Positions 7,603-63,381 of a stretch of DNA of 64,000 nt are shown one piece after another. The stretch covers positions 62,240 to 126,239 of the forward strand of contig CAVVMW010000018.1 in the NCBI GenBank assembly GCA_963749495.1. The letters are read 5' to 3'. This DNA is from an uncultured bacterium (lineage in GTDB: Bacteria; Verrucomicrobiota; Verrucomicrobiia; Limisphaerales; UBA8199). The notes under the pieces were generated by a model, which had not been told where the DNA came from, did not search any database, and saw only the letters and a list, made by a program, of their open reading frames with translations. Position 1 is the stretch's first letter, and the number at the start of each line of letters is the position of its first letter. The position numbers and the translations under genes were made by a program.

Positions 7603-7637
7603 CAATCTCCCACTGGACGTGGCCGACGGGAACGAGG

Positions 7638-7905
7638 GGTGCGATTAAAACTGGCGGTCAGCCCACGGCGCCTTTTTGCCCCGGAGGGGCTTCCGACAAT
7701 AGCCCGGCGTTTCAACGCCGGGTGCGCGGACCCAAGGAGCAGGTCCGTCCCGAAGGGACGGCTGAAAGCAAGGAGCGTTCTCAGTCGTCCCTTCGGGACG
7801 AGGGTCGCTTTTGTGGCCTCCCCGGCGTTGAAACGCCGGGCTATTGTCAGATGTCCCTCCGGGACAAAACCCCCGAGGCGCATGCCCGACGCTTTTAATC
7901 GCACC
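7638..7905 (+). repeat. Family-3 MITE-like element (about 268 bp, TIR GGTGCGATTAAAA)
   Basis: Terminal inverted repeat GGTGCGATTAAAA...TTTTAATCGCACC. Internal hairpins CCCGGCGTTTCAACGCCGGG (x2), GTCCCGAAGGGAC and GTCCCTTCGGGAC. Other copies at 43421, 56099, 60138 and 63908. Confidence 0.9.
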
Positions 7906-8017
7906 CGGAACCGATGCGGCCATTGACGCGATTGATACGACACAATCCCGACTGCCGCGCGCGTTTTGTCATTTCCCCATCCGTGTTCTTCAGATGAAGC
8001 TTAGGCTAACGTTGGCC

Positions 8018-12663: not shown

Positions 12664-12806
12664 CACGTCCTTCCAATTCTGCCGAAGCAAGCCCCTGGAC
12701 CCGTTCCAGGAGAGCGTGCTTGACCGGGTTTTTACCAAAAAGCGCCCTCCGTGTGAAGTGTGCGTTTGGGGGCACACCCCGCTAGGGCCCATCCTGACAG
12801 TCCCCC

Positions 12807-12918
12807 CGGAGTGCGCCCGTCCCCGGGCGCAGCGACGTCCGGAGCCAGCGCAGCGGTCAAACGCTCCACCGCGCCTGCTCGCCCCGTCGCTGCTGCGCCC
12901 GGGGACGGGCGCACTCCG
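12807..12918. repeat. Family-4 foldback repeat (about 110 bp)
   Basis: Perfect 26-bp arms GGAGTGCGCCCGTCCCCGGGCGCAGC / GCTGCGCCCGGGGACGGGCGCACTCC. Copies at 24151, 56027 (split) and 57790. Confidence 0.9.
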
Positions 12919-12967
12919 CTCGCCCTCGGCGGTGGGGGCAATGCCGGGATGCGCCTGCCCCTGCGGA

Positions 12968-13139
12968 GCGCGCGACAGAATTCTTCGGATGCACGATGGA
13001 ACCGGCGGTGCGTGCTCTGGACGCCAAAGGCGTCGTTCATACCAGCCCAGGGCAACGCCCTGGGAACAGCCGCCAATAGTCATCTGGATCGCTGAAAGCG
13101 CGATTCATCCTCCCGGAGGCTTATGAGGCAGGCCGTTGG
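12968..13139. repeat. Family-5 foldback repeat, left half (interrupted)
   Basis: Colinear with 63090-63250 up to ...GAGGCAGGCCGTTGG, then homology stops at 13139. Confidence 0.9.
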
Positions 13140-13145
13140 TCAAGC

Positions 13146-13451
13146 TTGCCAACTACGCCTGATTGCGACGATCTGGCACAGGTCTTTCGCATCACGCACC
13201 CCTATCACCCGCTCCGTGGCCGGGGGTATAGACTACTGCGCCGCGGACAGGGCTGGGGAGATCGTCGGGTCTGGTTCCATGATGACGCCGGACAGTTGAT
13301 TTCATTGCCTGAAGCCTGGACCAGCCTGGGACCGGCCGACCCGTTTGTGACCCTCTCGCAGGGGCGCGCTTGCGCACGGGTGGAAGACCTGCTTGGGCTG
13401 GCGCAACTGGTGGCGGACTTAAGCCGCAACGATGTAAAGGGGAATATGTGA
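13146..13451 (+). CDS. Small protein resembling the DUF5372 / Y4bD-Y4pK family (from memory)
   Basis: FRITHPYHPLRGRGYRLL...RVWFHDDAGQLISLPEAWTSLGPADPFV. Only a TTG start is available in the integrated state, 6 nt inside the element end. Confidence 0.55.
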   Translation: MPTTPDCDDLAQVFRITHPYHPLRGRGYRLLRRGQGWGDRRVWFHDDAGQLISLPEAWTSLGPADPFVTLSQGRACARVEDLLGLAQLVADLSRNDVKGNM

Positions 13452-13538
13452 ATGCTGTAAAGAAGAATATGTGTAATGATTTTGGGGTGTGGGCGGTTGA
13501 TGTGCATTGTTACGCCTATAATAAGGCAAATAATAGGG

Positions 13539-13568
13539 TTGACACGGAGCCGGAGACGCCACTATACT
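13539..13568 (+). promoter_or_regulatory. Sigma70-like promoter inside the element (TTGACA-18-TATACT)
   Basis: TTGACA at 13539-13544 and TATACT at 13563-13568, in the only AT-rich stretch of the element, 39 nt upstream of ATG 13607. Confidence 0.5.
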
Positions 13569-13606
13569 CACATAAACTAGTTCACATAAGCCCACCCCCA
13601 TCCTTT

Positions 13607-14110
13607 ATGCCAACGGCTCCATCCCACGACGCCAAGCACCAAGCCCTCCAAACCAGCCATACCCTGCATCCCCACCCCGACAAAGTCCGCCACCCCCTCT
13701 TTGTCCCCGGCGGCTTCTTTGATGCCCGCGACCTCCTTCAAGTCAAATATGAGGCCCTGCGCGCCCTCCGCGCCGAAGGCTGGTCCTTGAGCCGCGCCGC
13801 CCGAGATTTCGGGCTGTCGCGACCCACGGTTTACCAAACCAAACACCTCTTCGCCCTCCAGGGCCTGGAGGGTCTGGTGCCTCGCAAGCCGGGACCCAAA
13901 ACCGCTCATAAATTCACCCCCGAGGTTTTGGGCTTTCTCCAAGCCAGGCGCGCCCAGCAACCGGCGATCTCGGCGGAGCAGTGGGCCCGACAGGTCCAGC
14001 AACGCTTCCGGCTCACCATCCATCCCCGGAGCATTGAACGCGCCTTGGTTGGCCACCAAGAAAAAAGGGGGCGACACAACCCACCGCCCTCAACACCCCA
14101 AAATCCATGA
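13607..14110 (+). CDS. Helix-turn-helix domain protein of the recombinase element
   Basis: WSLSRAARDFGLSRPTVYQTKHLF is an HTH. Stop overlaps the next start (ATGA). Confidence 0.7.
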   Translation: MPTAPSHDAKHQALQTSHTLHPHPDKVRHPLFVPGGFFDARDLLQVKYEALRALRAEGWSLSRAARDFGLSRPTVYQTKHLFALQGLEGLVPRKPGPKTAHKFTPEVLGFLQARRAQQPAISAEQWARQVQQRFRLTIHPRSIERALVGHQEKRGRHNPPPSTPQNP

Positions 14111-14385
14111 CCGACCTCAGCTCGCCACAATGGCCCCAACGCTACGAGGATTTGCGCGCGCACACCCTGGGCTCCCAGGCCACGCTCCACCCCCAAGCCT
14201 GGGCATGGGTGGTGTTCGCCCAGCAGGGTATGCGTGGCTGGATGCGCGCCTGGCAGGATCCGCTGCGCCCTGCCGGCCAGCGGGCCCAGCCAGCCCCCAC
14301 CCTCAATCCCTCGCTCAACACCAGCCCCCAGGCCACGGTGCTTCTAGCCAACAGGACCCTGCGTTGCCTGGGCCTTTCTTTATGA
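14107..14385 (+). CDS. Hypothetical protein of the recombinase element (92 aa)
   Basis: Translationally coupled on both sides (ATGA overlaps at 14107 and 14382). Confidence 0.5.
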   Translation: MTDLSSPQWPQRYEDLRAHTLGSQATLHPQAWAWVVFAQQGMRGWMRAWQDPLRPAGQRAQPAPTLNPSLNTSPQATVLLANRTLRCLGLSL

Positions 14386-16425
14386 ACCCCGAACCCAAAG
14401 TCACCCCCGAGCATCTGAAACGAACCGCTTGCCTTTGCATGCGCCAGTCCACCTTGCGGCAGGTGCTCGAGCATGGCGAAAGCGCCCGCCGTCAATGTGC
14501 GCTGCGGCAACGCGCCGTGGCGCTGGGCTGGGGTGAAGGCCAAATCATCGTGGTGGACGGCGACACCGCCCATAGCGCTGCTTGCGCCGCCGGCCTGGCA
14601 GGACTTCCAGCAACTGGTGGCCGAGGTGGGCTTGGGTCATGCCGGTCTGGTGATGGGCTTGGAGGTTTCGCGTCTGGCCCGTAACTGCAGCGACTGGCAC
14701 CGGCTCCTGGAGTTGTGCGCGCTGAGCAATACCCTCATCCTGGACGAGGAGGGCCTCTATGACGCCAATCAGTTCAATGACCGCCTGCTGCTGGGCTTGA
14801 AAGGCGCCATGAGCGAAGCGGAGTTGCACCTCATCAAAGGCCGGCTCCAAGGGGCGATTCTGAGCAAGGCCCGGCGTGGCGAGTTGAAGTTGCCCTTGCC
14901 CTCAGGGCTGGTTTACAGCCCCGATGAGCGGGTCATCTTGGACCCGGACCAGCAGGTGCAGCAGGCGGTCAAACACTTCTTCCAGAGTTTTGGGCGTGCC
15001 GGCTCGGCCAGGTCCACAGTGCAACTTTTTCGGCGCCAAGCCCTGCTGTTTCCTCACCGCCACCAGGCCGGCTCGGGCGAGCTGCAGTGGGACCCACTCA
15101 CGCAGTCCCGAGCGTTGGCGGTGCTCCGCAATCCGGGGTGTGCGGGCGCCTATGCCTTCGGCCGCACGCGGACGCGTCACACGCCCCAGGGCGGGGTCAG
15201 TTGCCGGCGCTTGCCGGCCGACCAATGGCGAGTGCTCATTAAAGACGCCCACCCGGCTTACATTACCTGGGAGCAGTACGAGCAAAACGTGCAACGGATC
15301 CGCAGCAATGCCCAGGCCTATGGAGCCGACCGCAGGCAAAGTCCCGCCCGAGAAGGTTGCGCGCTGCTCCAAGGACTGGTCCTGTGCGGCCGTTGCGGGG
15401 GGCGCATGACCGTGAATTACCACCAGCGCCAGGGCCGGCCGGTGCCCGCTCACCTCTGCCAACGCCAATGCCTTGAGAGCGGAAAAACCCTCTGCCAGTA
15501 CATACCTGGGCCTGCCATTGACCAGGCGCTCAGCAAGCTGGTTCTGGAAAGCGTGGCGCCGCTTTCCCTGGAGGTCGCTTTGAACGTGCAACAGGAGCTC
15601 CAAAACCGCCTGCAGGACGTGGATCGTCTGCGCCAACAACAAGTCCAGCGGGCCAGTTATGAGGCGGAGCAGGCCCAGCTTCGCTACATGCGCGTGGACC
15701 CCAACAACCGCCTGGTGGCCAACACTTTGGAGGCGGATTGGAACAACAAACTGCGCGCCTTGACCCAGGCCCAACAGGAATACGAGAAGCACCGCCAGAC
15801 TGACCAGCACAAGCTGAGCGAAGAGCAACGGGCACAAGTGCTGAACCTGGCCTGCGACTTCCCCAAATTATGGCAGTCACCCACCACCACCGACAAGGAC
15901 CGCAAACGCATGGCCCGATTGCTCCTGGAGGATGTAACCCTGCTGCGCGGCCAGGATCTGAGCGTGCAAGTCCGTTTCAAGGGCGGCGCCACCCGGTGCT
16001 TGAACCTGCCACTGCCCCTCAGGGGTGGCCAAGCGCGCCTCACCGAACCGGGGCTCTTGCACGAGATCGACCAGTTGCTGGATCAGTTTACCGAAGCACA
16101 ACTGGCGGCGCAGCTTAACCAGAGGGGCTGTTGCTCTTCGCTCAAGCGCCCGTTCTCGGCGAAACTCGTTGGAAGCTTGTGCCGCTGCCACCATTTCAAG
16201 ACCCGCCACCAACGGTTGCAGGACAGAGGGCTCTTGGATTCGCGCGCCATCGCGGCGTTGATCGGCACCAGGCCCAACCTGGTGGGCTATTGGCGCCAGC
16301 AAGGCTTGCTCCAGGGAGTCCTGCTGAATGAAAGGAATGAATATATGTATGAACGGCCGGGTCCGCAAGTAGTCGAACAAATCAAAATGCGCGTTCGTTT
16401 GAAACCCACCGAGGCCCAGTCTTAG
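14382..16425 (+). pseudogene. Large serine recombinase (resolvase/invertase N-domain plus large C-terminal region) with an apparent +1 frameshift near 14590
   Basis: The N-terminal part RTACLCMRQSTLRQVLEHGESARRQCALRQRAVALGWGEGQIIVVDGD is in the frame of ORF 14034-14684. The continuation FQQLVAEVGLGHAGLVMGLEVSRLARNCSDWHRLLELCALSNTLILDEEGLYD runs on in the frame of ORF 14473-16425. Confidence 0.8.
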
Positions 16426-16465
16426 ATCGCCCTAATGAGTGTGCAGTATGAAACCTTCGCTTTGG

Positions 16466-16572
16466 CCTGCAATAGAGAATGTGCGATGGACCCAGGGCGG
16501 CGGCCCGCCTGCGCTGCGCTCCGGCGGGCCTTGCCCTGGGCTGGTATGATTCAGGCCTTCGGCCTGAACGCC
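16466..16572. repeat. Family-5 foldback repeat, right half (interrupted)
   Basis: CCTGCAATAGAGAATGTGCGATGGACCCAGGGCGG...CCTTGCCCTGGGCTGGTATGATTCAGGCCTTCGGCCTGAAC, colinear with 63254-63363. Confidence 0.9.
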
Positions 16573-16884
16573 AGAGTGCCAACCCCAGGCCCGGCATCAG
16601 GGAGAGCACCAAGCGACGTATATATGGGCCCCACATACGTAGGCACCATGAATCCGCGCAAATCACAGGGTTCGAAGGATTTCGTCATGCACCCCCGCGC
16701 CCGGCCTCCAGGGGGCTTCCCGACACTGCCCCCGCTCCCCGGAGCGCGCTGAATAAAAAGGCCGTCGGCTCCGACTATAGGGTAACGACAAGCAGAGCGC
16801 GGCGAGATGCGCAGATCTCTGAGATCTCACCGCACTTGACCCCGGGCAGGCGCCTGGATAGCATCGGACCGCATAGGTGAGAAA

Positions 16885-20146: not shown

Positions 20147-20276
20147 GGGAGCAGAATAGGACCCCGGCGCAAATTGTTCAATCCTGGAATCGAGCTGATC
20201 CCTCGCCGGGGCGTATCTCACCTTTCTCGGCCTTCGGCAAGCCTGACTATTGGAGCGGGCGTCGGGAAGCCCGCCA

Positions 20277-20366
20277 GGTTTTGGACTGCGCCAGTCCTCT
20301 GGCGCTTTGGCGTCCCCAGGGGTCCGAAAAGCGGCAGAGGACTGCCGCAGTCCAAAACGCTTCGCG
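20277..20366. repeat. Family-2 repeat core (long palindrome form)
   Basis: GGTTTTGGACTGCGCCAGTCCTCTGGCGCTTT...AAAGCGGCAGAGGACTGCCGCAGTCCAAAACGC. Confidence 0.9.
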
Positions 20367-20449
20367 ACTTCGGACGCCCGCTCCAACCGCCCGGTTCGGC
20401 CGGGCTCGGCAAAGGTGAGATGCGCCCCCCTCACCGGCCGGATTACGGC

Positions 20450-24086: not shown

Positions 24087-24150
24087 TTGCCGCCAGTCAG
24101 GGTAAAATGAATGGGGGCGGGATGGGAAGCCTCTTGGCAGGATCCTGCCC

Positions 24151-24263
24151 TCGGAGTGCGCCCGTCCCCGGGCGCAGCAGCGACGGAGCCGGCAGGCGCG
24201 CCGGAGTACTCGGCCGCTGCCCTGGCTGCGGACATCGCTGCGCCCGAGGACGGGCGCACTCCC
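24151..24263. repeat. Family-4 foldback repeat
   Basis: CGGAGTGCGCCCGTCCCCGGGCGCAGCAGCGACGGAGC...GCTGCGCCCGAGGACGGGCGCACTCC. Confidence 0.9.
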
Positions 24264-24338
24264 CTCTCGCCGCAACCGGATCTGGTTTGACACCTCCGGG
24301 GCGATCTTTAGGCTTGGCTGACTGATTTTCGGAGCACC

Positions 24339-35112: not shown

Positions 35113-35398
35113 TCGGTCCCACACATACCGCTCGTCGTATCGTTGACCGTCCCGCCCAGGCAGGCGCGCAGCAAGCGGTTAGGGATGGGGGACGACTCGC
35201 GAATGGCGCAAGCCATCGGGCGAGTCAACCGCGGGGCGGACCTCGGACTGGAGCGGCCCAAGGAGCAGTTGGAACAGGCACACGGAGATGCCGCGCCGAC
35301 GGAGATATGAGCAAAAATCAGAATTCAGGGACTTCATAACGACCCCTTCAAAAACCCCTTCAAAAATCAGAATTCAGGGACCCCTTCACTTCACTGAG

Positions 35399-35572
35399 TC
35401 ATACCAGCCCAGGGCAAGGCCCGCCGGAGCGTAGCGCAGGCGGGCCGCCGCCCTGGGTCCACCGCACATTCTCGATTGCAGGCCAACGGCCTGCTTCATA
35501 AGGCTCCTGGAGGTTGAATCGCGCTTTCAGCGCTCCAGATGATTATTGGCCGCCGTTCCCAGGGCTTTGCCC
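35399..35572. repeat. Family-5 foldback repeat (reverse orientation), truncated at the IS4-like element
   Basis: Contains an uninterrupted CAGGCCAACGGCCTG at 35479-35493. Homology ends at ...CCCAGGGCTTTGCCC (35572), where consensus continues TGGGCTGGTATGA. Confidence 0.85.
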
Positions 35573-39038: not shown

Positions 39039-39065
39039 GGCCGGCGCACCCGCCCTCCCCGAGGT

Positions 39066-39279
39066 GCGTCGCGGAGCGACGCAGTGAAGGCAGCCGTGGA
39101 CCTCGGTCCACGGTTTGGGGCGTGGGGATGGCGTCGCGTCGCGTAGCAACGCCTGACGGTTCGGGGCTTAGACAGATCGGCGTCCCTCTTCAGGCGTCGC
39201 TCCGCAACGCGGGGCGTCCTGGGCACAAGGTCCGTGGACTGAAGTCCACGGCTGCCGTCAGGCACCGCTACGCGGTGAC
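39066..39279. repeat. Family-6 foldback repeat (about 210 bp)
   Basis: GCGTCGCGGAGCGACGCAGTGAAGGCAGCCGTGGACCTCGGTCCACGG...GTCCGTGGACTGAAGTCCACGGCTGCCGTCAGGCACCGCTACGCGGTGA. Lies 28 nt after the rpoD stop. Confidence 0.9.
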
Positions 39280-39463
39280 CGAAGGTCCCGGCACGCGCGG
39301 GAGCGGCACCCGGGCCCCCACCGGCTTGCAAAAGGCCCAGGGACGGCTATTCTACTGACGGCAGGACGCGCCAGCCAGGCAAACCGACGACCGGACCGGC
39401 GCCCTGCCATTTGGCGGGCTGTTGCCAAATAGACCAGTGCTAAACCGACAATTCAGGAATCGT

Positions 39464-40387
39464 ATGATTGCACAGATAGGCAAGCGCATTTTTCTGCTCG
39501 TGATGGTGAACATCCTGATCATGGCCACTATCACGGCGATCCTCGCGGTATTGCACGTAGGCCGTTACTTTCCTCGGGGCGGCCTGGCGGGGCTGGCGGT
39601 ATTGTGCCTGGTCATGGGGTTCGGAGGGGCTTTCGTTTCCCTGGCGCTGTCGCGCGCGATGGCCAAATGGTTCATGGGGGTGCAGGTGGTGCCGCCGAAT
39701 GCCACGGACCCGGGCTTGCAGGAATTGGTCCAGACCGTTCATGGGCTGGCGCGCGCGGCCGGCCTGCCGCTGCCCGAGGTGGGAATCTATGAATCACCCG
39801 AGGTGAACGCCTTTGCCACGGGCCCCACGCAATCCCGCGCCTTGGTGGCCGTCTCGACCGGGCTGCTGGGGCGGATGCGGGAGCGGGAAATCCAGGGTGT
39901 CCTGGGCCATGAGATGACCCATATCGCCAATGGCGACATGGTGACCATGACGCTCCTGCAGGGGGTCATCAATGCCTTCGTGATGTTCGTGTCTTACGTG
40001 CTGGCCTTTGCCCTGAGCCAGGCCATGCGCTCCAAGGATGACGAGCGCGACGGCGGGGGCTCCTGGCTGTGGCAGTACCTCCTGAGCCAGGTCTTCCAGG
40101 TGGTCTTCGGCCTCCTGGGGATGATCGTCATCTGCTGGTTTTCGCGCTGGCGGGAGTTCAGGGCCGATGCAGGCGGCGCCCGGTTGGCCGGGCGCGGCAA
40201 CATGATCGATGCCCTGCGGGCCTTGCGGCGGCTCCATGACCCCGCGCTCGCCCTCGCCGAAGCCAAGCGCGCCCAGGCCTTTCAGTCCCTCAAGATCTCC
40301 GGCCCGCGCGGCGGCTTGCTGGCCCTCTTTGCCACCCATCCTCCGCTGGAAGAACGCATTGCGCGGCTCGAACACGCAACGGTGTAG
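39464..40387 (+). CDS. htpX: Zinc metalloprotease HtpX (M48 family)
   Basis: HEMTHIANGDM motif and four TM segments. The ATG at 39464 is preferred over the upstream TTG. Confidence 0.9.
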   Translation: MIAQIGKRIFLLVMVNILIMATITAILAVLHVGRYFPRGGLAGLAVLCLVMGFGGAFVSLALSRAMAKWFMGVQVVPPNATDPGLQELVQTVHGLARAAGLPLPEVGIYESPEVNAFATGPTQSRALVAVSTGLLGRMREREIQGVLGHEMTHIANGDMVTMTLLQGVINAFVMFVSYVLAFALSQAMRSKDDERDGGGSWLWQYLLSQVFQVVFGLLGMIVICWFSRWREFRADAGGARLAGRGNMIDALRALRRLHDPALALAEAKRAQAFQSLKISGPRGGLLALFATHPPLEERIARLEHATV

Positions 40388-40391
40388 AGTC

Positions 40392-40829
40392 CACGGTTCA
40401 AGGCGTGGGAATCATCGCGCGTCGCGTAGCGACGCAGTGAAGGTAGCCGTGGACCGCGGTCCACGGTTTGGAGCTTGGGAATGCTCGCGCGTCGCGTAGC
40501 GACGCCTGACAGCATCGCGGTTTTCAGGCGTCGCTACGCGACGCGGTCGAGCTTGGGCCATGGGTCCGTGGACTGGAAGTCCACGGCTACCATCGGGCAC
40601 CGCTACGCGGTGAGCCGGGAGCAGTGCGTGCGTCGCGGAGCAACGCAGTGAAGGTAGCCGTGGACCTCGGTCCACGGTTTGGAGCTTGGGAATGCTCGCG
40701 CGTCGCGTAGCGACGCCTGACAGCATCGCGGTTTTCAGGCGTCGCTACGCGACGCGGTCGAGCTTGGGCCATGGGTCCGTGGACTGGAAGTCCACGGCTA
40801 CCATCGGGCACCGCTACGCGGTGAGCCGG
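40392..40829. repeat. Family-6 repeats, two tandem copies (211-bp period)
   Basis: 40461-40617 is repeated essentially identically at 40672-40828. Begins 5 nt after the htpX stop. Confidence 0.9.
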
Positions 40830-40858
40830 GAGCAGTGAGGGGTCCGCCCCGTCCCGCC

Positions 40859-43420: not shown

Positions 43421-43687
43421 GGTGCGATTGAACGCGTGGGACATGCCCCTCGGGGTTTTGTCCCGGAGGGACATCTGACAATGGCCCGGCGTTTCAACGC
43501 CGGGGAGGCCACGAAAGGGACCCTCCTCCCGAAGGGACGACTGAGAACACTCCGTGCTTTGAGCCGTCCCTTCGGGACGGACCTGCTCCCTGGGTGCGCT
43601 CACCCGGCGTTGAAACGCCGGGCTATTGTCGGAAGCCCCTTCGGGGCAAAAGCTCGCCGTGGGCTGGCCGACCCTTTTCATCGCACC
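43421..43687 (-). repeat. Family-3 MITE-like element
   Basis: GGTGCGATTGAACGCG...CCTTTTCATCGCACC, reverse orientation relative to 7638-7905. Confidence 0.9.
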
Positions 43688-43761
43688 CCTCCGCGGGTCT
43701 TGACTGTCGCCCGGATGATGCCGCATCTTCTGGTCCGGACAGGTGCGACAGGTGATCTGAC

Positions 43762-50633: not shown

Positions 50634-53544
50634 TCATTCGAAGCTCAGCCGGTAAAAGCGGCTAGCCGGGGGATTGGTGAGACTGAGCACCCACCAGTTG
50701 TTGGTGGTCAGGACCGGCGTTGAGGCCAAGGTGGTCCACTGGGCCGGGGGTGCGAGGCTGGGCGTTTCCTTGAGCGTCAGGGGTGCGCTATTGGTCCAGG
50801 AGAGCAGGACCAACTGCCGGCCCAGATGCGCGCCGGCCGCGCCATAAGAACGAGGTCATGCTCAGCGCCGGCACTGCCTGCACCGGCACGGCCAGGGAGA
50901 ATTCGGAGGTATTGCCCTGGGCATCGGTGGCCGTGGCGGTGATGACGCTGACCGCCGGCACCGGGTTGGTGAGAAAGGCCAGGAAACTGCCGTTGCAGTC
51001 CGCGCCGGTGGATACCGTCTTTTCGCCCAGATAGACCTGTCCCTCGCCATGATCCTGGCCGATGATCAGGTCGGGCATCGGCTCAGCAAAGAACTGGACA
51101 CGGCAGAGGCCGTTGGGGCGGGTGTTGAGCGTGCCGCTGACGCCGGTGCCGTTTGGCCCCGCCACCGCGTTGGAGAGCACGGGGTAATTCTGCCCGAGAT
51201 TGGCGGCCCCGGCCCCGACCCCCGCATCGCAGGGCAGATTAGCCCACACGCCGTATTGGCCGAGGTTGATGCCCAGGGCGCCATTGGCGAAGATCGCGTT
51301 GCCCAGGATGGAATCGCAAGCGGCGCCGTCGCGGATGCGGACCCCCGCGAAATCCCCATGGGCGTAAGCGATGCGGTTGCCCGCGTTGGCATCGCCGCCG
51401 ATCAGGTTGTAATTGGCCCCGGCCTCGCACTCGACGCCGTGAAAGATGTTGCACAGGTTGGCCACCCCGTCGCTCTTGGTGCCAATCCAGTTGCCCTGGA
51501 TGACATTCCAGCAGGAATTGGTCATGTAGATGCCGTCGCCGTTGGCATAAGAAGCGCCGTTGCCGGAGATTAGATTGCCCGCGCCCGGCGCCGCGCCCCC
51601 GATGACATTGGTGGAGGCGCTCTCGATGTAGATGCCGTCGTAGAAGTTGCCCAGCCGGGCCGTGCCGGTGAGGTCGGTGCCGATCTTGTTGCCCTGGATG
51701 AGAGTGCCGCTGGAGCCGCTGCCGACGATGGAAATGCCCGTGTAGCTATTGGCTGAAATGAGGTTGCCGGCCCCCGGGGTTGCGCCGCCAATCCTGTTGC
51801 CCGGAGCATCGGAGAGGAAGAGCCCGGACGCGCCGTAGGGGGCGGCGAGGCCGTTGGGCAGGGGGGCCGTGCCGCTGGAATCGGTCCCGATGAGATTGCC
51901 GGCCACCACGTTGCCCGTGGCGGTGGCGCCGTCCAGTTGGAGGCCGTCCAACCCGTTGCCGGAGATCACGTTGCGCGCCCCGGTGAGGGCCCCGCCGATC
52001 GTGTTGCCTGGGGATTGGATGTACACGCCCGCCATGCCATTGGTCAACGAGGTCTGGCCGCCGGCATCGGTGCCGATCCAATTGCCCTGCACCAGGTTGG
52101 CCGTGGTTCCGGAGATGAGCGCGACCCCGTGGCCGCGGTTGCCTGAAATCACGTTGCCCGCCCCGGTGAGCGTCCCCCCAACCGCGTTGGAAAGTCCGCC
52201 GGAAATGGTGACTCCACTATAGGCATTGCCCAGGGTGCCTGCGCCAGTTCCGTCCACTCCGATGCGGTTGCCCTGCACCAGGTTGCCCACGCCGTTGGTG
52301 ATGAAGATGCCGTCCTGTTGGTTGCCCAAAATCAGGTTGGCCGCCCCGGGCACAGTCCCCCCGATGAGGTTGGCGTTCGCGTTTTCGATGGTTATGCCTG
52401 CGTAGCTGTTGCCCAGGGCCTGCCGTCCCGAGGGCCTGGCGCCAATGCTGTTGCCCTGCACCACGTTGTTGGTCGCGCCGGCACCGTCGACGAGGATTCC
52501 TGCATGGCTATTGGCCAGGATCACGTTGCCCGCCCTGGCACCGGTGCCCCCAATGAGGTTCGAGGCCGCCTCGACAATCGAGATGCCGTCCCCGGCGTTG
52601 CTCAAGCTCATGCTCCCGGTCACGTCGGTGCCGATGTAATTGCCCTGCACCACATTGCCGTTGGCGCCCGGACCCTGGAGCAGCACGCCGCTGCCGCCGT
52701 TGCCGGCGAGGATGTTCGTTGCACCGGGCGTCGCGCCGCCTATGAGGTTGCCCGACGAGTTCAACACCAGCACGCCGTTATTGGCGTTGCCGAGCCGCGT
52801 ACGGCCGTTGGCAGTCGTGCCGATGAAATTGCCCAGCACTGCGTTGCTCGGGGCGGAGTAGAGATAGACGCCGCAATCGGAGCTGGCAGAGATCACATTG
52901 CGGTCCGCGGCATTGGTCCCGCCTATCACATTGCCCTGGGACGAATAGACGTAGATCCCCTCCCCGCCGTTGGCCCGGCTGAGGGTGCCGCTCACATCCA
53001 GGCCGATGAAATTGCCCCGGATCCAGTGGTTGCCCAGGCCCTCGATCCGCACCCCGCCCCCGGCAAACCGGTTGATGACCAGCCCGCAGACCACACAGTT
53101 GCTCGAGAGCAAATGCAGACCGTTGCCGCCCCCCGCGCTCGCCCCGTCCAGCTCGATCAATGGAGAGCCGGCGAACCCCGGCTGGGTCGTGCCGTCAATC
53201 ACCACCGGGTCCGTGACTGCTGGCAGGGCCGAATGGGGGAGGATCGTGTGAGTGGCCTTGCCCGGTATTCGGAAGATGATCTTGTCCAGCCCATTGCTCG
53301 AGTTGGCATTGAGCATCGCCTCGCGCAATGAACCCACCCCGCTGTTGAGCGTGTTCGAGACCACGAACGTCGCCGCCTCGCTCCTGAGCCCCGCGCCAGC
53401 CGCCGCCAACACCAACCCCAGCCACGCCCCAGCCCAGCGGCGCCCGAGGCCAGCCTGGGCCCGGAGACGCGAAATGCCCGGAATAGTCTCTTCCCTCCGG
53501 CCGCCTTCGCCACCGCTTGTCATATCCGGCATAAGTGCAGACAT
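50634..53544 (-). CDS. Right-handed parallel beta-helix repeat protein with an N-terminal CSLREA-like motif; apparent frameshift near 50830
   Basis: GSLREAMLNAN, then dozens of G-N-x-I-x-G-N repeats. The C-terminal HLGRQLVLLSWTNSAPLTLKETPSLAPPAQWTTL...ASRFYRLSFE is open in another frame down to the TGA at 50634. Confidence 0.75.
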
Positions 53545-55929: not shown

Positions 55930-56026
55930 AGGCTGGGCTGGTTCTTTTCTGCGCGTCTATAGTCGAAATGCGACCGGGAGGCGAGTCAAAAAGGGCGGAG
56001 GGCGAGGCAAGGGCGCGTCCCTGCCC

Positions 56027-56417
56027 CGGAGTGCGCCCGTCCCCGGGCGCAGCAGCGATGGAGCGGGCAGGCGCGCAGGTGTGTTTGACCGCTGCCCAGG
56101 TGCGATTAAAAGCGTGGGGCATGCGCCTCGGGAGTTTTGTCCCGGAGGGACACCTGACAATAGCCCGGCGTTTCAACGCCGGGGAGGCCACAAAAGGGAC
56201 CCTCGTCCCGAACGGACGAGTGACAACACTCCTGGCTTTCAGCCGTCCCTTCGGGACGGACCTGCTTTTTGGGGCCGCTCACCCGGCGTTGAAACGCCGG
56301 GCTATTGTCGGAAGCCCCTTCGGGGCAAAAAGGCGGCCTTGGCTGGCCGACAGTTTTAACAGCACCCCCGCTGCCGTGGCTCCGGACGTCGCTGCGCCCG
56401 GGGACGGGCGCACTCCG
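56027..56417. repeat. Family-4 foldback repeat split by a family-3 MITE
   Basis: The left part 56027-56098 and right part 56367-56417 together match the intact copy at 57790-57897. Confidence 0.9.
56099..56366 (-). repeat. Family-3 MITE-like element nested in a family-4 repeat
   Basis: GGTGCGATTAAAAGCG...CAGTTTTAACAGCACC, flanked by CCGCTGCC at 56089-56096 and 56368-56375. Confidence 0.9.
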
Positions 56418-57488: not shown

Positions 57489-57851
57489 ATGCACCGCAAA
57501 CCCGCCATGCCCGCTCAGAAGCCCTTGCGCACCAGCCTTGTTTCTGCCAAGAGATGGCTCGATTGGACAGCCGTCTTCTGCCTGCTCCTCCTCATCGCCT
57601 GCACCCTGGCGGGCTGCAAGAAGCCCGTCGCGGGCACTAACGCCCACTCGAGGCTCCTTCAGTCGGCCGCCCCCAGATCAAGTCCGCAAACGTTGTCGCG
57701 GAACCCGAGCTGCGGGTCGAGTGCCGACTCGCGCTTTCCGACCCGTCCGACCGGTCCCCACCCCCCCTGGCGTATCGCGACACTGCCCGCGGAGTGCGCC
57801 CGTCCCCGGGCGCAGCAGCGACGGAGCGGGCAGGCGCGCCGCAGTACTTGA
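57489..57851 (+). pseudogene. Small lipoprotein paralog, 5' fragment only
   Basis: KRWLDWTAVFCLLLLIACTLAGCKKPVAGTNAHSRLLQSAAP matches 59637-60029 up to about 57685. The ORF then runs into unrelated sequence and a family-4 repeat. Confidence 0.6.
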
Positions 57852-57897
57852 CCGCTGCCCTGGCTGCGGACGTTGCTGCGCCCGAGCACGGGCGCAC
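57790..57897. repeat. Family-4 foldback repeat (intact)
   Basis: GGAGTGCGCCCGTCCCCGGGCGCAGCAGCGACGGAGCGGGCAGGCGCGCC...GCTGCGCCCGAGCACGGGCGCACC. Confidence 0.9.
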
Positions 57898-58081
57898 CCC
57901 CATCTCGCCGCAGCCGGTGGGGGCGGTGTCGGGATACGCCCCCCCCTGTGCGCTGAAACGCACAGTTTACAACTCCTGGGGGGAAGCGTAGGATGCGTAC
58001 GTAAGCCCTGTGAAACAGCCATTCATTTATCGGACCGGGATGGACCGTCAATCCAGGCTTGACAAAACCGCGCGCAAACGA

Positions 58082-60029: not shown

Positions 60030-60137
60030 CGTGCCGTCCCGCTGACGGGCACCCCAAATTGCAAAGCGCCTGGAGATGCGCGGCACGCCCGCGTTCTGGC
60101 TCCATGAGCGCCGCCCCGCCCGGCCGGGGGATTATTG

Positions 60138-60403
60138 GGTGCGATTAAAACTGTCGGTCAGCCCACGGCGCCTTTTTGCCCCGAAGGGGCTTCCGACAAT
60201 AGCCCGGCGTTTCAACGCCGGGTCAACGAACCGAAAGAGCAGGTCCGTCCCGAAGGGACGGCTGAAAGCAACGAGTGTTCTCAGTCGTCCCTTCGGGACG
60301 AGGGTCCCTTTTGTGGCCTCCCCGGCGTTGAAACGCCGGGCTATTGTCAGATGTCCCTCCGGGACAAAGCTCCAAGGGGCATGCCCACTCTTCTAATCGC
60401 ACC
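60138..60403 (+). repeat. Family-3 MITE-like element with a perfect 9-bp flanking duplication
   Basis: GGTGCGATTAAAACTG...CTTCTAATCGCACC. GGGATTATT occurs at 60128-60136 and 60405-60413. Confidence 0.9.
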
Positions 60404-63051: not shown

Positions 63052-63089
63052 AGGCTAAAGGCTAAGGTGCAGCGGGGCAGGGCGCACGA

Positions 63090-63363
63090 CAGAGTTCTTC
63101 GCGTGCATGATGGGGCCGGAGGTGCGTGCTCTGGACGCCAAAGGCGTCGTTCATACCAGCCCAGGGCAACGCCCTGGGAACAACCGCCAATAATCATCTG
63201 GAGCGCTGAAAGCGCGATTCATCCGCCGGGAGCTTCATGACGCAGGCCGTTGGCCTGCAACAGAATAGATGATGGGCGGTGGACCCAGGGCGACGGCCCG
63301 CCTGCGTTGCGCTCCGGCGGGCCTTGCCCTGGGCTGGTATGACTCAGGCCTTCGGCCTGAACC
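63090..63363. repeat. Family-5 foldback repeat, intact reference copy
   Basis: Arms are TCATACCAGCCCAGGGCAA (63151-63169) and TTGCCCTGGGCTGGTATGA (63324-63342). The apex palindrome CAGGCCGTTGGCCTG is at 63243-63257. Confidence 0.9.
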
Positions 63364-63381
63364 CCAGCGCGCAAACTCCGC

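What the first reader, a model, noticed from the sequence alone, without database searches (positions are those of the whole stretch)
13136..16465. Four-gene large-serine-recombinase element inserted at the apex palindrome of a foldback repeat; attL, attR and attB-like sites are all visible
A family-5 repeat runs from 12968 to ...GAGGCAGGCCGTTGG (13139). It resumes at 16466 (CCTGCAATAGAGAATGTGCGATGGACCC...). Uninterrupted copies read ...GCAGGCCGTTGGCCTGCAA... at 63243-63260 and, in reverse complement, at 35479-35493. The intervening 3,326 bp carries a DUF5372-like ORF, an HTH protein, a small ORF and a ~680-aa serine recombinase, the last three translationally coupled. Both junctions contain TTGG (13136-13139 and 16462-16465), which is the presumed crossover core. 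The target CAGGCC-GTT-GGCCTG is a perfect dyad lying within a few nt of the geometric centre of the repeat (arms at 63151-63169 and 63324-63342). The deduced attP, CCTTCGCTTTGGTCAAGCTTGCC, also has dyad symmetry (GCTT-TGGTC-AAGC). A serine-recombinase element that uses a multicopy palindromic repeat as its landing pad would have many safe-harbour sites per genome. The gene set recalls the poorly studied Y4bA-Y4bD/Y4pH-Y4pK units of rhizobial plasmids (from memory; to be verified).
Basis: partly seen in the sequence, partly recalled or inferred. Interest (0 to 1): 0.85.

Follow-up and report, generated by a model that had tools for sequence, protein, structure and literature searches.

The report
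Dead NGRIS-4-type serine-recombinase insertion sequence
A 3.3-kb, four-gene mobile element driven by a large serine recombinase sits precisely in the central hairpin of a repeated foldback sequence; it belongs to the little-studied NGRIS-4 insertion-sequence family, whose relatives normally jump into the transposase genes of other mobile elements, and this copy carries a frameshift in its recombinase gene.

Summary
Joining 13139 to 16466 restores the 19-nt apex palindrome of a ~290-bp foldback repeat, which has two uninterrupted copies in the window. The insert carries four genes: DUF5372, an HTH protein, a small ORF and a ~680-aa large serine recombinase (LSR).

All four proteins are homologous, in the same order, to y4bD, y4bC, y4bB and y4bA of pNGR234a. 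Sources name these "putative transposases 1-4 of insertion sequence NGRIS-4". This is therefore a new member of a known but barely characterised IS family.

- The crossover core is TT, not TTGG. TT is the only sequence shared at both junctions in the 16 attL/attR pairs read, one of which has a true empty site.
- Relatives do not use this repeat. About 22 of 30 sit in rve-type DDE transposase genes, at the codon four residues before the catalytic glutamate. A dedicated landing pad is thus unsupported (n=1).
- The window copy has a 1-nt insertion at about 14596 that frameshifts the recombinase, so it is probably dead.

One apparently new feature: the DUF5372 ORF spans the circle junction. Its start codon lies in the right end, so the gene is complete only in the excised circle.

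The parts
12963..13135 (+). Left half of the interrupted ~290-bp foldback repeat ('family 5'), up to the crossover
   Evidence: 89-90% identical to 63077-63253.
13136..13137 (+). TT crossover dinucleotide at attL
   Evidence: TT is the only sequence shared by attL and attR in all 16 junction pairs read. These pairs comprise the window, nine 76-86% relatives including L098, five elements of the 58% clade, and the Burkholderia element. NGRIS-4b is consistent with TT after a register choice.
13138..13162 (+). Left end of the element, equal to the right arm of attP (GGTCAAGCTTGCCAACTACGCCTGA). It also encodes residues 6-14 of the junction-spanning ORF1.
   Evidence: Conserved in relatives. Complementary to the right end at 12 of 25 positions about TT, with outer motif ACTACGC against GTGCAGT.
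13146..13451 (+). ORF1, DUF5372 protein (y4bD/y4pK homologue). In the integrated state only a TTG start is available. The full 109-aa ORF begins at the ATG at 16448 across the circle junction.
   Evidence: Pfam DUF5372, E 1.2e-18. Junction ORF shown. The AF2 model is a small beta-barrel plus a helix.
13539..13568 (+). Sigma-70-like promoter TTGACA-N18-TATACT upstream of ORF2
   Evidence: 11 of 12 consensus matches. The -35 TTGACA is invariant in 10 aligned elements.
13608..14110 (+). ORF2, helix-turn-helix protein (y4bC/y4pJ homologue). It resembles the N-terminal DNA-binding region of IS630/IS481/IS21 transposases.
   Evidence: Pfam HTH_29/28/23/32. NCBIfam gives sub-threshold N-terminal matches to IS630/IS481/IS21 transposases. 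40% identical to y4bC.
14107..14385 (+). ORF3, 92-aa protein with no family (y4bB/y4pI position). ATGA overlaps on both sides.
   Evidence: Weak similarity to y4bB (28%, E 0.004). An ORF of 79-92 aa is conserved at this position in relatives.
14382..16425 (+). ORF4, large serine recombinase (y4bA/y4pH homologue), interrupted by a +1 frameshift (extra T at about 14596)
   Evidence: Pfam Resolvase, Recombinase and Zn_ribbon_recom. 80% identical to intact 680-aa homologues. The 1-nt insertion is seen against L021, L005 and L003. 18 unique changes at positions invariant in 15 relatives, the highest count in the set.
16441..16461 (+). Right end of the element, equal to the left arm of attP (GTGCAGTATGAAACCTTCGCT). 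It contains the ATG (16448-16450) that is in frame with ORF1 across the junction.
   Evidence: The 17-mer GTGCAGTATGAAACCTT is exact in L003, L005 and L006, which were found through protein searches. L007 differs at 2 nt. Frame conservation shown.
16462..16463 (+). TT crossover dinucleotide at attR
   Evidence: Same evidence as for 13136-13137.
16464..16574 (+). Right half of the interrupted foldback repeat
   Evidence: 90% identical to 63250-63367 and 96% complementary to 35394-35486.
63077..63370 (+). Complete, unoccupied copy of the repeat (attB-like site at 63242-63260)
35394..35572 (-). Truncated, unoccupied copy of the repeat (attB-like site at 35476-35494)

Best explanation
The insert is one copy of an NGRIS-4-family insertion sequence. 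It is about 3.32 kb long and its transposase is a large serine recombinase (LSR).

Shown:
- A four-gene module (DUF5372, HTH, small ORF, LSR) lies between two TT dinucleotides, at a site that is intact in other copies of the host repeat.
- In relatives the same module lies between TT dinucleotides at many different sites.
- attP, reconstructed from the two ends, is an imperfect dyad centred on TT.

Inferred from the established LSR mechanism:
- The LSR synapses attL and attR.
- It makes 2-nt staggered cuts at TT, rotates subunits and religates.
- This releases a circle carrying attP and reseals the donor site.
- The circle then integrates by attP x attB recombination at a TT flanked by a short attP-like core (CCNTT...).

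Inferred from anatomy:
- A conserved sigma-70-type promoter drives ORF2, ORF3 and the LSR as a translationally coupled operon.
- The DUF5372 ORF has its ribosome-binding site and start codon in the right end of the element. The full 109-aa protein can therefore be made only after circularisation, when it becomes the last gene of the operon.
- I propose it acts in the circle-specific step, biasing the reaction towards integration (for example by neutralising an excision factor encoded by ORF2 or ORF3) or helping target capture. This last point is speculative.

The family's usual target is the codon four residues upstream of the catalytic Glu of rve-type DDE transposase genes. The window copy went instead into the apical palindrome of a foldback repeat, most likely as a secondary, non-canonical site. 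A frameshift has since disrupted its recombinase reading frame, so it is probably immobile unless complemented in trans.
For: Identity
- Pfam domains.
- More than 8000 LSR homologues, many on contigs of about 3.3-3.6 kb.
- The same four-gene order is annotated in Burkholderia, Rhodococcus and pNGR234a.
- Source names link y4bA-D to NGRIS-4.
- Each window protein matches its NGRIS-4 counterpart.
- About 3.3-kb unit boundaries appear in rhizobial plasmids.

TT crossover
- 16 attL/attR pairs share only TT.
- One has a real empty site in the same strain: attB CATCGGCGCA-TT-ATCGTAGC, attL GCATT|GGAG, attR GCCTT|ATCG.
- The NGRIS-4b junctions are consistent with TT after a register choice.
- The attP dyad is centred on TT, with 12-15 of 25 complementary positions in 8 of 9 elements. 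NGRIS-4b is weaker at 7 of 25, though it keeps the outer TGCA.

Independent transposition
- Element and flank identities are discordant. L021 and L005 elements are 86% identical but their flanks barely align. L005 and L075 flanks are 86% identical but their elements only 79%.
- The last 68 nt of the right end are identical in L018 and L059, which lie in two different rve families.

Targets
- About 22 of 30 right flanks are rve genes, cut just before K-G-K/R-x-E.
- Pfam rve matches in seven target fragments run to profile position 93-102 of 102, at or within a few residues of the junction.
- L005 shows D-35-E spacing by direct count.

Junction ORF
- An intact 109-aa ORF starts at the right-end ATG in 8 of 9 close relatives. 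Five of these have no start codon in the integrated form.
- It is also in frame in NGRIS-4 (ATG) and in the Burkholderia element (AAGGAGG-N4-GTG).
- Predicting TT from the reading frame alone hit TT in 5 of 5 elements of the 58% clade.
- Gene callers give DUF5372 proteins of 56-125 aa with flank-encoded N-termini.

Promoter.
Frameshift and decay.
Against: - No excised circle or attP junction was seen in any contig. Circularisation is inferred only.
- The junction ATG lies inside the most conserved recombinase-binding sequence, so its conservation could reflect DNA binding rather than coding. Variable columns in the leader fall 13/11/16 by codon position, with no third-position excess.
- A position weight matrix (PWM) built from canonical attBs ranks the window site only 1117th of 4816 TT sites. 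Resemblance to the canonical target therefore does not explain the site choice. A changed specificity in this lineage is not excluded.
- The frameshift could be a sequencing or assembly error.
- The roles of ORF1-3 are untested. Foldseek gave no significant match for DUF5372.
Confidence: 0.8

Rival explanations
1. Dedicated landing pad. This lineage of the element has evolved to recognise the apex palindrome of the multicopy foldback repeat as its attB, which gives it many neutral integration sites per genome.
For: - The insertion is exactly in the palindrome near the centre of the repeat.
- The site scores poorly against the family's canonical attB matrix, as a retargeted specificity would predict.
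- No rve gene lies in the 64-kb window.
- The right half TT-GGCCTGC is identical to the NGRIS-4b attB right half.
Against: - There is only one insertion.
- Two of the three repeat copies in the window are empty.
- None of about 35 related elements is in such a repeat, and the repeat is absent from all fetched loci.
- The palindrome's dyad axis is offset by half a base pair from the TT centre, so the two half-sites are out of register.
- The copy's recombinase gene is frameshifted.
Confidence: 0.15
2. Gene-interrupting excision element, analogous to XisF/fdxN or SpoIVCA/skin. The element's biological role would be to split a gene and restore it by programmed excision, rather than to transpose.
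For: - The best NCBIfam match of the LSR is XisF, far below the cut-off.
- Relatives split transposase genes precisely, and excision would restore them.
Against: - The window copy sits in a non-coding repeat.
- Discordant element and flank phylogeny, and the same element in different rve families, show repeated transposition.
- Replicons carry many copies, for example 12 places in one Microvirga plasmid.
- Sources already treat it as an IS.
Confidence: 0.03
3. Artefact. The apparent insertion is an assembly chimera that joins an element contig into a repeat.
For: Repeat-rich genome. Elements of this family often assemble as separate ~3.3-kb contigs.
Against: - Both junctions fall at TT with the family's conserved ends, at the same register as in 15 other junction pairs.
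- The two repeat halves abut without loss or gain beyond TT.
Confidence: 0.02

Closest known systems
NGRIS-4 of Sinorhizobium fredii NGR234 (y4bD-y4bC-y4bB-y4bA / y4pK-y4pJ-y4pI-y4pH)
   Same: - Same four genes in the same order, with 28-46% protein identity.
- Same unit length of about 3.3 kb.
- TT at both junctions.
- Start codon for the DUF5372 gene in the right end, in frame across the junction.
- From memory of Perret et al. 1997 (J Bacteriol 179:7488; existence confirmed, text not held): all nine NGRIS-4 copies lie in other ISs. This matches the rve-gene targets found here.
   Different: - The host is a Verrucomicrobiota-like genome. This is inferred from Limisphaerales relatives.
- The window copy's target is a non-coding foldback repeat, not a transposase gene.
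- The recombinase gene is frameshifted.
TnpX / TndX large serine 'transposases' of Tn4451 and Tn5397 (from memory; the TndX-like multi-targeting clade is described in PMC10083194)
   Same: An LSR that excises the element as a circle and integrates at several sites. Those sites share a central dinucleotide and a loose resemblance to the circle joint.
   Different: - Those enzymes typically carry DUF4368, which was not detected here.
- They use a GA core (from memory) and carry resistance cargo.
- They have no DUF5372, HTH or ORF3 partners and no known preference for transposase genes.
Phage serine integrases (Bxb1, phiC31, A118/LI)
   Same: - Resolvase + Recombinase + zinc-ribbon/coiled-coil architecture.
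- A 2-bp non-palindromic crossover.
- An imperfectly dyad attP of about 45-50 bp with outer motifs.
   Different: - The element has no phage genes.
- It is an IS-sized unit with many targets.
- The enzyme has an extra C-terminal region of about 250 aa (MerR-type HTH hits in some homologues).
- No recognisable RDF.
IS607 family (small serine transposases)
   Same: A serine-recombinase-driven IS without terminal inverted repeats or target duplications (PMC4058570, PMC6188088).
   Different: - IS607 TnpA is a small enzyme with an N-terminal HTH and minimal target specificity.
- It has no Recombinase or zinc-ribbon domains, and its partner gene is tnpB.
REP/BIME-targeting IS elements (IS1397, ISKpn1, several IS110-family members; from memory)
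   Same: Insertion into the loop or centre of multicopy palindromic repeats, used as neutral sites.
   Different: Those use DDE or DEDD transposases. Here the palindrome hit is a single event, and it is not the family's habit.
Tn916 circularisation-dependent expression (from memory)
   Same: Joining the element's ends places genes downstream of a promoter at the other end, so they are expressed only from the circle.
   Different: In Tn916 transcription crosses the joint. Here the coding sequence itself crosses it (start codon at one end, body at the other). This is inferred, not demonstrated.

Membership tests
NGRIS-4-type insertion sequences | Four co-oriented genes in the order DUF5372, HTH, small ORF, ~680-700-aa serine recombinase | tested here: met
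   Pfam. Synteny in pNGR234a, Burkholderia and Rhodococcus. BLASTP of each window protein to y4bD, y4bC, y4bB and y4bA gives E 9e-24, 3e-35, 4e-3 and 0.
NGRIS-4-type insertion sequences | Discrete unit of about 3.3 kb that recurs with the same ends in different contexts | tested here: met
   The window insert is 3326 bp. Relatives are 3309-3319 bp between TTs. NGRIS-4 spans query 247/248 to 3571/3581 in many plasmids.
NGRIS-4-type insertion sequences | Insertion into other IS or transposase genes | tested here: not met
   Met by about 22 of 30 relatives, by NGRIS-4b and by the Burkholderia element. Not met by the window copy, which lies in a non-coding repeat. This is a habit of the family, not a structural criterion.
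Large serine recombinases | N-terminal resolvase catalytic domain with the nucleophilic Ser, followed by a Recombinase domain and a zinc ribbon with coiled-coil insert | tested here: met
   PF00239, PF07508 and PF13408. The motif RQST is retained. However, the gene is split by a frameshift.
Large serine recombinases | Recombination at a 2-bp crossover identical in attP and attB, with no target duplication | tested here: met
   TT is the only shared junction sequence in the 16 pairs, one with an empty site. The chemistry itself is not testable here.
Large serine recombinases | Catalytic activity and an excised circular intermediate | not testable with these tools
   No circular or attP-containing contig was found. 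This needs PCR, long reads or a recombination assay.
TndX/TnpX-like multi-targeting LSR clade | DUF4368 domain, typical of that clade (PMC10083194) | tested here: not met
   No DUF4368 hit at E <= 0.01.
IS607 family | Small serine recombinase with an N-terminal HTH, paired with tnpB | tested here: not met
   The domain order is resolvase first and the protein is about 680 aa. No tnpB is present.
XisF-type developmental excision recombinases | Scores above the NCBIfam equivalog cut-off (375 bits) and interrupts a host gene | tested here: not met
   82.8 bits against a cut-off of 375. The insertion is in a non-coding repeat.

The most novel reading that the evidence does not exclude
Three linked claims:
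1. NGRIS-4-type elements are serine-recombinase 'transposon hunters'. Across bacterial phyla they home to one homologous position in rve-type transposase genes of several IS and Tn families (TniA-like, IS21-like, ISNCY-like, IS3). That position is the first two bases of the codon four residues before the catalytic glutamate.
2. Their DUF5372 gene is assembled only in the excised circle. It acts as a topological switch that tells the recombinase whether it is integrated or free.
3. In this verrucomicrobial lineage the element may additionally have been retargeted to a REP-like palindrome.
Probability: 0.3. Interest if true: 0.8.

Novelty: new member of a known kind. Interest (0 to 1): 0.5.

Why it matters
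On its own, the window copy is a probably dead insertion sequence in a neutral site, which is ordinary. The family it belongs to matters more.
- It is very widespread: more than 8000 recombinase homologues and 525 plasmids.
- It was named in 1997 but, in the literature I could search, is mechanistically undescribed.
- It appears to combine three useful properties. It uses a large serine recombinase as a transposase. It homes to the catalytic-site codons of other transposons' transposase genes, a self-limiting 'safe harbour' that also disables competitors. It carries a gene that is complete only in the circular intermediate.

If confirmed, these enzymes would be a new source of LSRs with short, definable target motifs. 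The circle-only gene would be a simple natural solution to the directionality problem of serine integrases.

Tried and rejected
- Other copies of the same element or an empty site, by exact protein look-up of window ORF3 and of the downstream gene. Neither is on record. The source genome is absent from the genome collection as well. A genome-wide census was therefore impossible.
- PWM of canonical attBs scanned over the reconstructed window. The real site ranks 1117th of 4816. I do not use the PWM as evidence either way, because it is dominated by coding conservation of TniA-like genes.
- Circularly permuted contigs. No terminal overlaps in twelve contigs of about 2.5-4.2 kb. P0005's contig has no DNA held.
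- DUF5372 structure. The AF2 model has pLDDT 72.6 and shows a 5-strand beta-barrel plus a helix. The best PDB matches are the small beta-barrel of ribosomal protein eS4, all with E > 1e-3. No functional assignment follows.
- Literature. There are no papers containing 'DUF5372', 'NGRIS-4' or the y4 gene names. Perret et al. 1997 is not held.
- Co-divergence of one ancient insertion with its host transposon as the explanation for the rve targets. Rejected because element and flank identities are discordant and the same element end occurs in two rve families.
Rejected because it is 2.5 nt off the TT, and the wider dyad about TT is the conserved one.


Full report
**1. The observation**

The window holds three copies of a ~290-bp foldback repeat. 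One is complete (63077-63370). One is truncated (35394-35572, minus strand). One is split at 13139/16466.

Joining the two halves restores the 19-mer GCAGGCCGTTGGCCTGCAA exactly. This sequence otherwise occurs only in the two intact copies, with 0.02 matches expected by chance.

The complete copy folds as a long hairpin (z = -8.1). The GCAGGCC-GTT-GGCCTGC stem-loop lies in its apical region. TTGG is present at both junctions. The description is therefore correct and far beyond chance.

**2. What the insert encodes**

- ORF1 (13146-13451) is a DUF5372 protein.
- ORF2 (13608-14110) is an HTH protein. It resembles the N-terminal DNA-binding region of IS630/IS481/IS21 transposases.
- ORF3 (14107-14385) has no family.
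- ORF4 is a large serine recombinase with Resolvase, Recombinase and zinc-ribbon domains.
- ORF2/3 and ORF3/4 overlap by ATGA.
- A near-consensus sigma-70 promoter (TTGACA-N18-TATACT, 13539-13568) precedes ORF2. Its -35 hexamer is invariant in ten aligned relatives.

The recombinase is not intact. Relative to three intact relatives there is an extra T at about 14596, which shifts the frame after residue ~71. The protein also has 18 unique substitutions at positions invariant in 15 relatives, the highest count in the set. Four of these replace conserved Tyr with Cys and one with His. This copy is probably dead, unless the T is a sequencing error.

**3. Which family**

The recombinase has more than 8000 homologues. 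Many are on contigs of about 3.3-3.6 kb, the signature of a collapsed multicopy element.

The same four-gene order is annotated in plasmids of Burkholderia, Rhodococcus and Sinorhizobium. 525 plasmids have a match, often several per replicon.

The four pNGR234a proteins are y4bD/y4pK, y4bC/y4pJ, y4bB/y4pI and y4bA/y4pH. Their depositors called them [quoted passage not shown]. Each window protein matches its counterpart at 41, 40, 28 and 46% identity.

The paper that defined NGRIS-4 (Perret et al. 1997) exists (reference list) but is not held. From memory, its abstract states that all nine NGRIS-4 copies had transposed into other ISs.

**4. Ends and crossover**

I read 16 attL/attR pairs:
- the window;
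- nine elements of 76-86% nt identity: L003, L005, L007, L019, L021, L047, L062, L075 and L098;
- five elements of a clade with about 58% recombinase identity;
- a Burkholderia element for which an uninterrupted copy of the target IS3 exists in the same strain.

In every pair the only sequence shared by both junctions is TT. The two bases after TT differ between attL and attR. Examples are GC/AC, GC/TG and AC/CG. In the empty-site case, attB is ...GCA-TT-ATC, attL is GCA-TT-GGA and attR is GCC-TT-ATC. The NGRIS-4b junctions are consistent with TT once the register is chosen, as explained in section 5.

The crossover is therefore the TT dinucleotide (window 13136-37 and 16462-63), as expected for a serine recombinase. 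The window's TTGG is TT plus two bases that happen to match.

The reconstructed attP is an imperfect dyad centred on TT. In 8 of 9 elements, 12-15 of 25 positions are complementary, against about 6 expected. A conserved outer motif (GGTGCAGT on one arm, ACTGCACC on the other) lies 15-22 bp from the centre. NGRIS-4b is weaker at 7 of 25 but keeps the outer TGCA.

**5. Where relatives insert**

None of about 35 related elements lies in the family-5 repeat.

About 22 of 30 right flanks are fragments of rve-type DDE transposase genes, read on the opposite strand and cut immediately before K-G-K/R-x-E. The types are:
- TniA-like genes next to TniB-like ATPases;
- IS21-like genes;
- an ISNCY-like type.

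The same holds for NGRIS-4b (TPQA|KGRVER). There I chose the first of two adjacent TTs because it preserves the KGRVER motif. The Burkholderia element sits in IS3 at CYD|NAPMES.

Pfam rve matches in seven such fragments run to profile position 93-102 of 102, at or within a few residues of the junction. In L005 the second Asp and the Glu are 35 residues apart by direct count. TT is therefore the complement of the first two bases of the codon four residues before the catalytic Glu.

These are independent events, not one inherited insertion:
- The L021 and L005 elements are 86% identical, yet their flanks barely align.
- The L005 and L075 flanks are 86% identical, yet their elements are only 79%.
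- L018 and L059 have right ends identical over their last 68 nt, but lie in two different rve families.

A minority of relatives (L028, L047, L053, L089, L093, L094) are in other sequence, as is the window copy.

**6. The window's target**

The central core GCCG-TT-GGCC resembles the usual CC(C/T)-TT-G(G/C). Its right half TT-GGCCTGC is identical to the NGRIS-4b attB.

Even so, a matrix built from canonical attBs ranks the site only 1117th of 4816 TT positions. The palindrome's axis is also half a base pair off the TT centre. No rve gene lies in the 64-kb window.

With one occupied and two empty repeat copies, and no access to the rest of the genome, a dedicated landing pad can be neither shown nor excluded. 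I rate it at about 0.15. A one-off secondary site is more likely.

**7. A gene that spans the circle junction**

The conserved right end contains an ATG (window 16448-50). After joining the ends at TT, this ATG is in frame with ORF1. The result is a 109-aa protein MKPSLWSSLPTTPDC... that is intact in 8 of 9 close relatives. The exception, L005, has other lesions.

- In five of them no ATG, GTG or TTG exists between the left junction and the conserved TTPDC codons, so the integrated copy cannot start the protein.
- The same holds in NGRIS-4 (ATG TCC GCT CCT|TCT...).
- It also holds in the Burkholderia element, where a perfect AAGGAGG precedes a GTG in the right end.
- Predicting the position of TT purely from this reading frame hit TT in 5 of 5 elements of the 58% clade.
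- Gene callers give DUF5372 proteins of 56-125 aa, with N-termini borrowed from flanks.

I infer that full-length DUF5372 is made only from the excised circle, where it lies downstream of the recombinase gene on the same strand.

Caveats: the ATG lies within the best-conserved recombinase-binding sequence, codon-position variability in the leader is not biased, and no circle was observed.

The AF2 model shows a small five-stranded beta-barrel plus a C-terminal helix (pLDDT 72.6). It has no significant PDB match.

**8. Mechanism proposed**

- In the integrated state, the internal promoter expresses the HTH protein, ORF3 and the recombinase.
- The recombinase synapses attL and attR, probably with ORF2 and/or ORF3 as excision or architectural factors. 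It exchanges strands at TT, releasing a circle and resealing the donor site.
- Circularisation completes the DUF5372 gene. Its product acts at the circle stage, either as a directionality switch towards integration or as a target-capture factor. This is speculative.
- The circle integrates at a TT in an attP-like core, usually in the catalytic-site codons of another transposon's transposase.

The window copy followed this route into a repeat hairpin and then decayed.

**9. Comparison and novelty**

- The element works like the TnpX/TndX serine transposases. However, it lacks their DUF4368 domain (PMC10083194) and has three extra genes.
- It is not IS607-like, because the domain order and size differ.
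- It is not a XisF equivalog (82.8 bits against a cut-off of 375).
- It is a new member of the NGRIS-4 kind.

I could not find three features in the searchable literature: the TT core, the codon-precise homing to rve genes across IS families and phyla, and the junction-spanning DUF5372 gene.

**10. Verdict**

The finding is real and its anatomy is largely as described. Its headline interpretation, a palindromic repeat as landing pad with a TTGG core, is not supported by the family evidence. The copy is defective.

Interest is moderate for the locus (0.5 overall). It is higher for the family-level leads it exposes.

Noticed in passing
L054 2930-3000 and L063 5820-5895: Only the last ~60 nt of an element's right end remain next to a truncated TniA-like rve gene. 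Ordinary host genes lie upstream, and no recombinase or DUF5372 is present. This is probably a solo end left by a deletion.
   Followed up: partly
L049 (oriented): left junction ~673, right junction ~4016: The left flank encodes KGKAER..., but the right flank encodes an IS21-like ...QVDFGQG...VLSHSR segment. The two flanks do not look like one continuous gene. This suggests a rearrangement between two copies or a deleted target.
   Followed up: no
window 13442-13480: A conserved direct repeat GAATATGTG(A/T) occurs twice around the ORF1 stop codon. It lies upstream of the invariant -35 TTGACA and is conserved in ten elements. It is a candidate operator for the HTH protein.
   Followed up: no
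window 15700-16425 (recombinase residues ~430-681): The recombinase has a C-terminal extension of about 250 aa beyond the usual zinc-ribbon/coiled-coil. Some homologues carry a precomputed MerR-type HTH hit (PF13411). In Rhodococcus pLPS8 this part is annotated as a separate HTH protein.
   Followed up: no
window-wide, e.g. 7636-7908, 43439-43691, 56096-56368, 60137-60386; 20260-20428; 39064-40837: The window is unusually rich in other dispersed and inverted repeat families (32 direct families, 51 inverted pairs). These include ~240-270-bp units in four copies and GGACTGCCGCAGTCC-type hairpins.
   Followed up: no
window 51467-52933: Periodic repeats with ~183-189-nt spacing lie on the strand read, with GC-rich GTTGCC.GA.AT... 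units. They look like a repetitive coding region, possibly beta-helix or adhesin-like.
   Followed up: no
L001 / L097 (Burkholderia sp. PAMC 26561 plasmids): The same strain holds an IS3-family element both interrupted by an NGRIS-4-type element and uninterrupted on two other replicons. This is a ready-made natural attB/attL/attR set for experiments.
   Followed up: yes
window 12800-12934: A second repeat family lies immediately upstream of the interrupted family-5 copy. Its other copies are at 24145-24279, 56020-56154 and 57783-57917. Repeats therefore cluster at this intergenic site.
   Followed up: no
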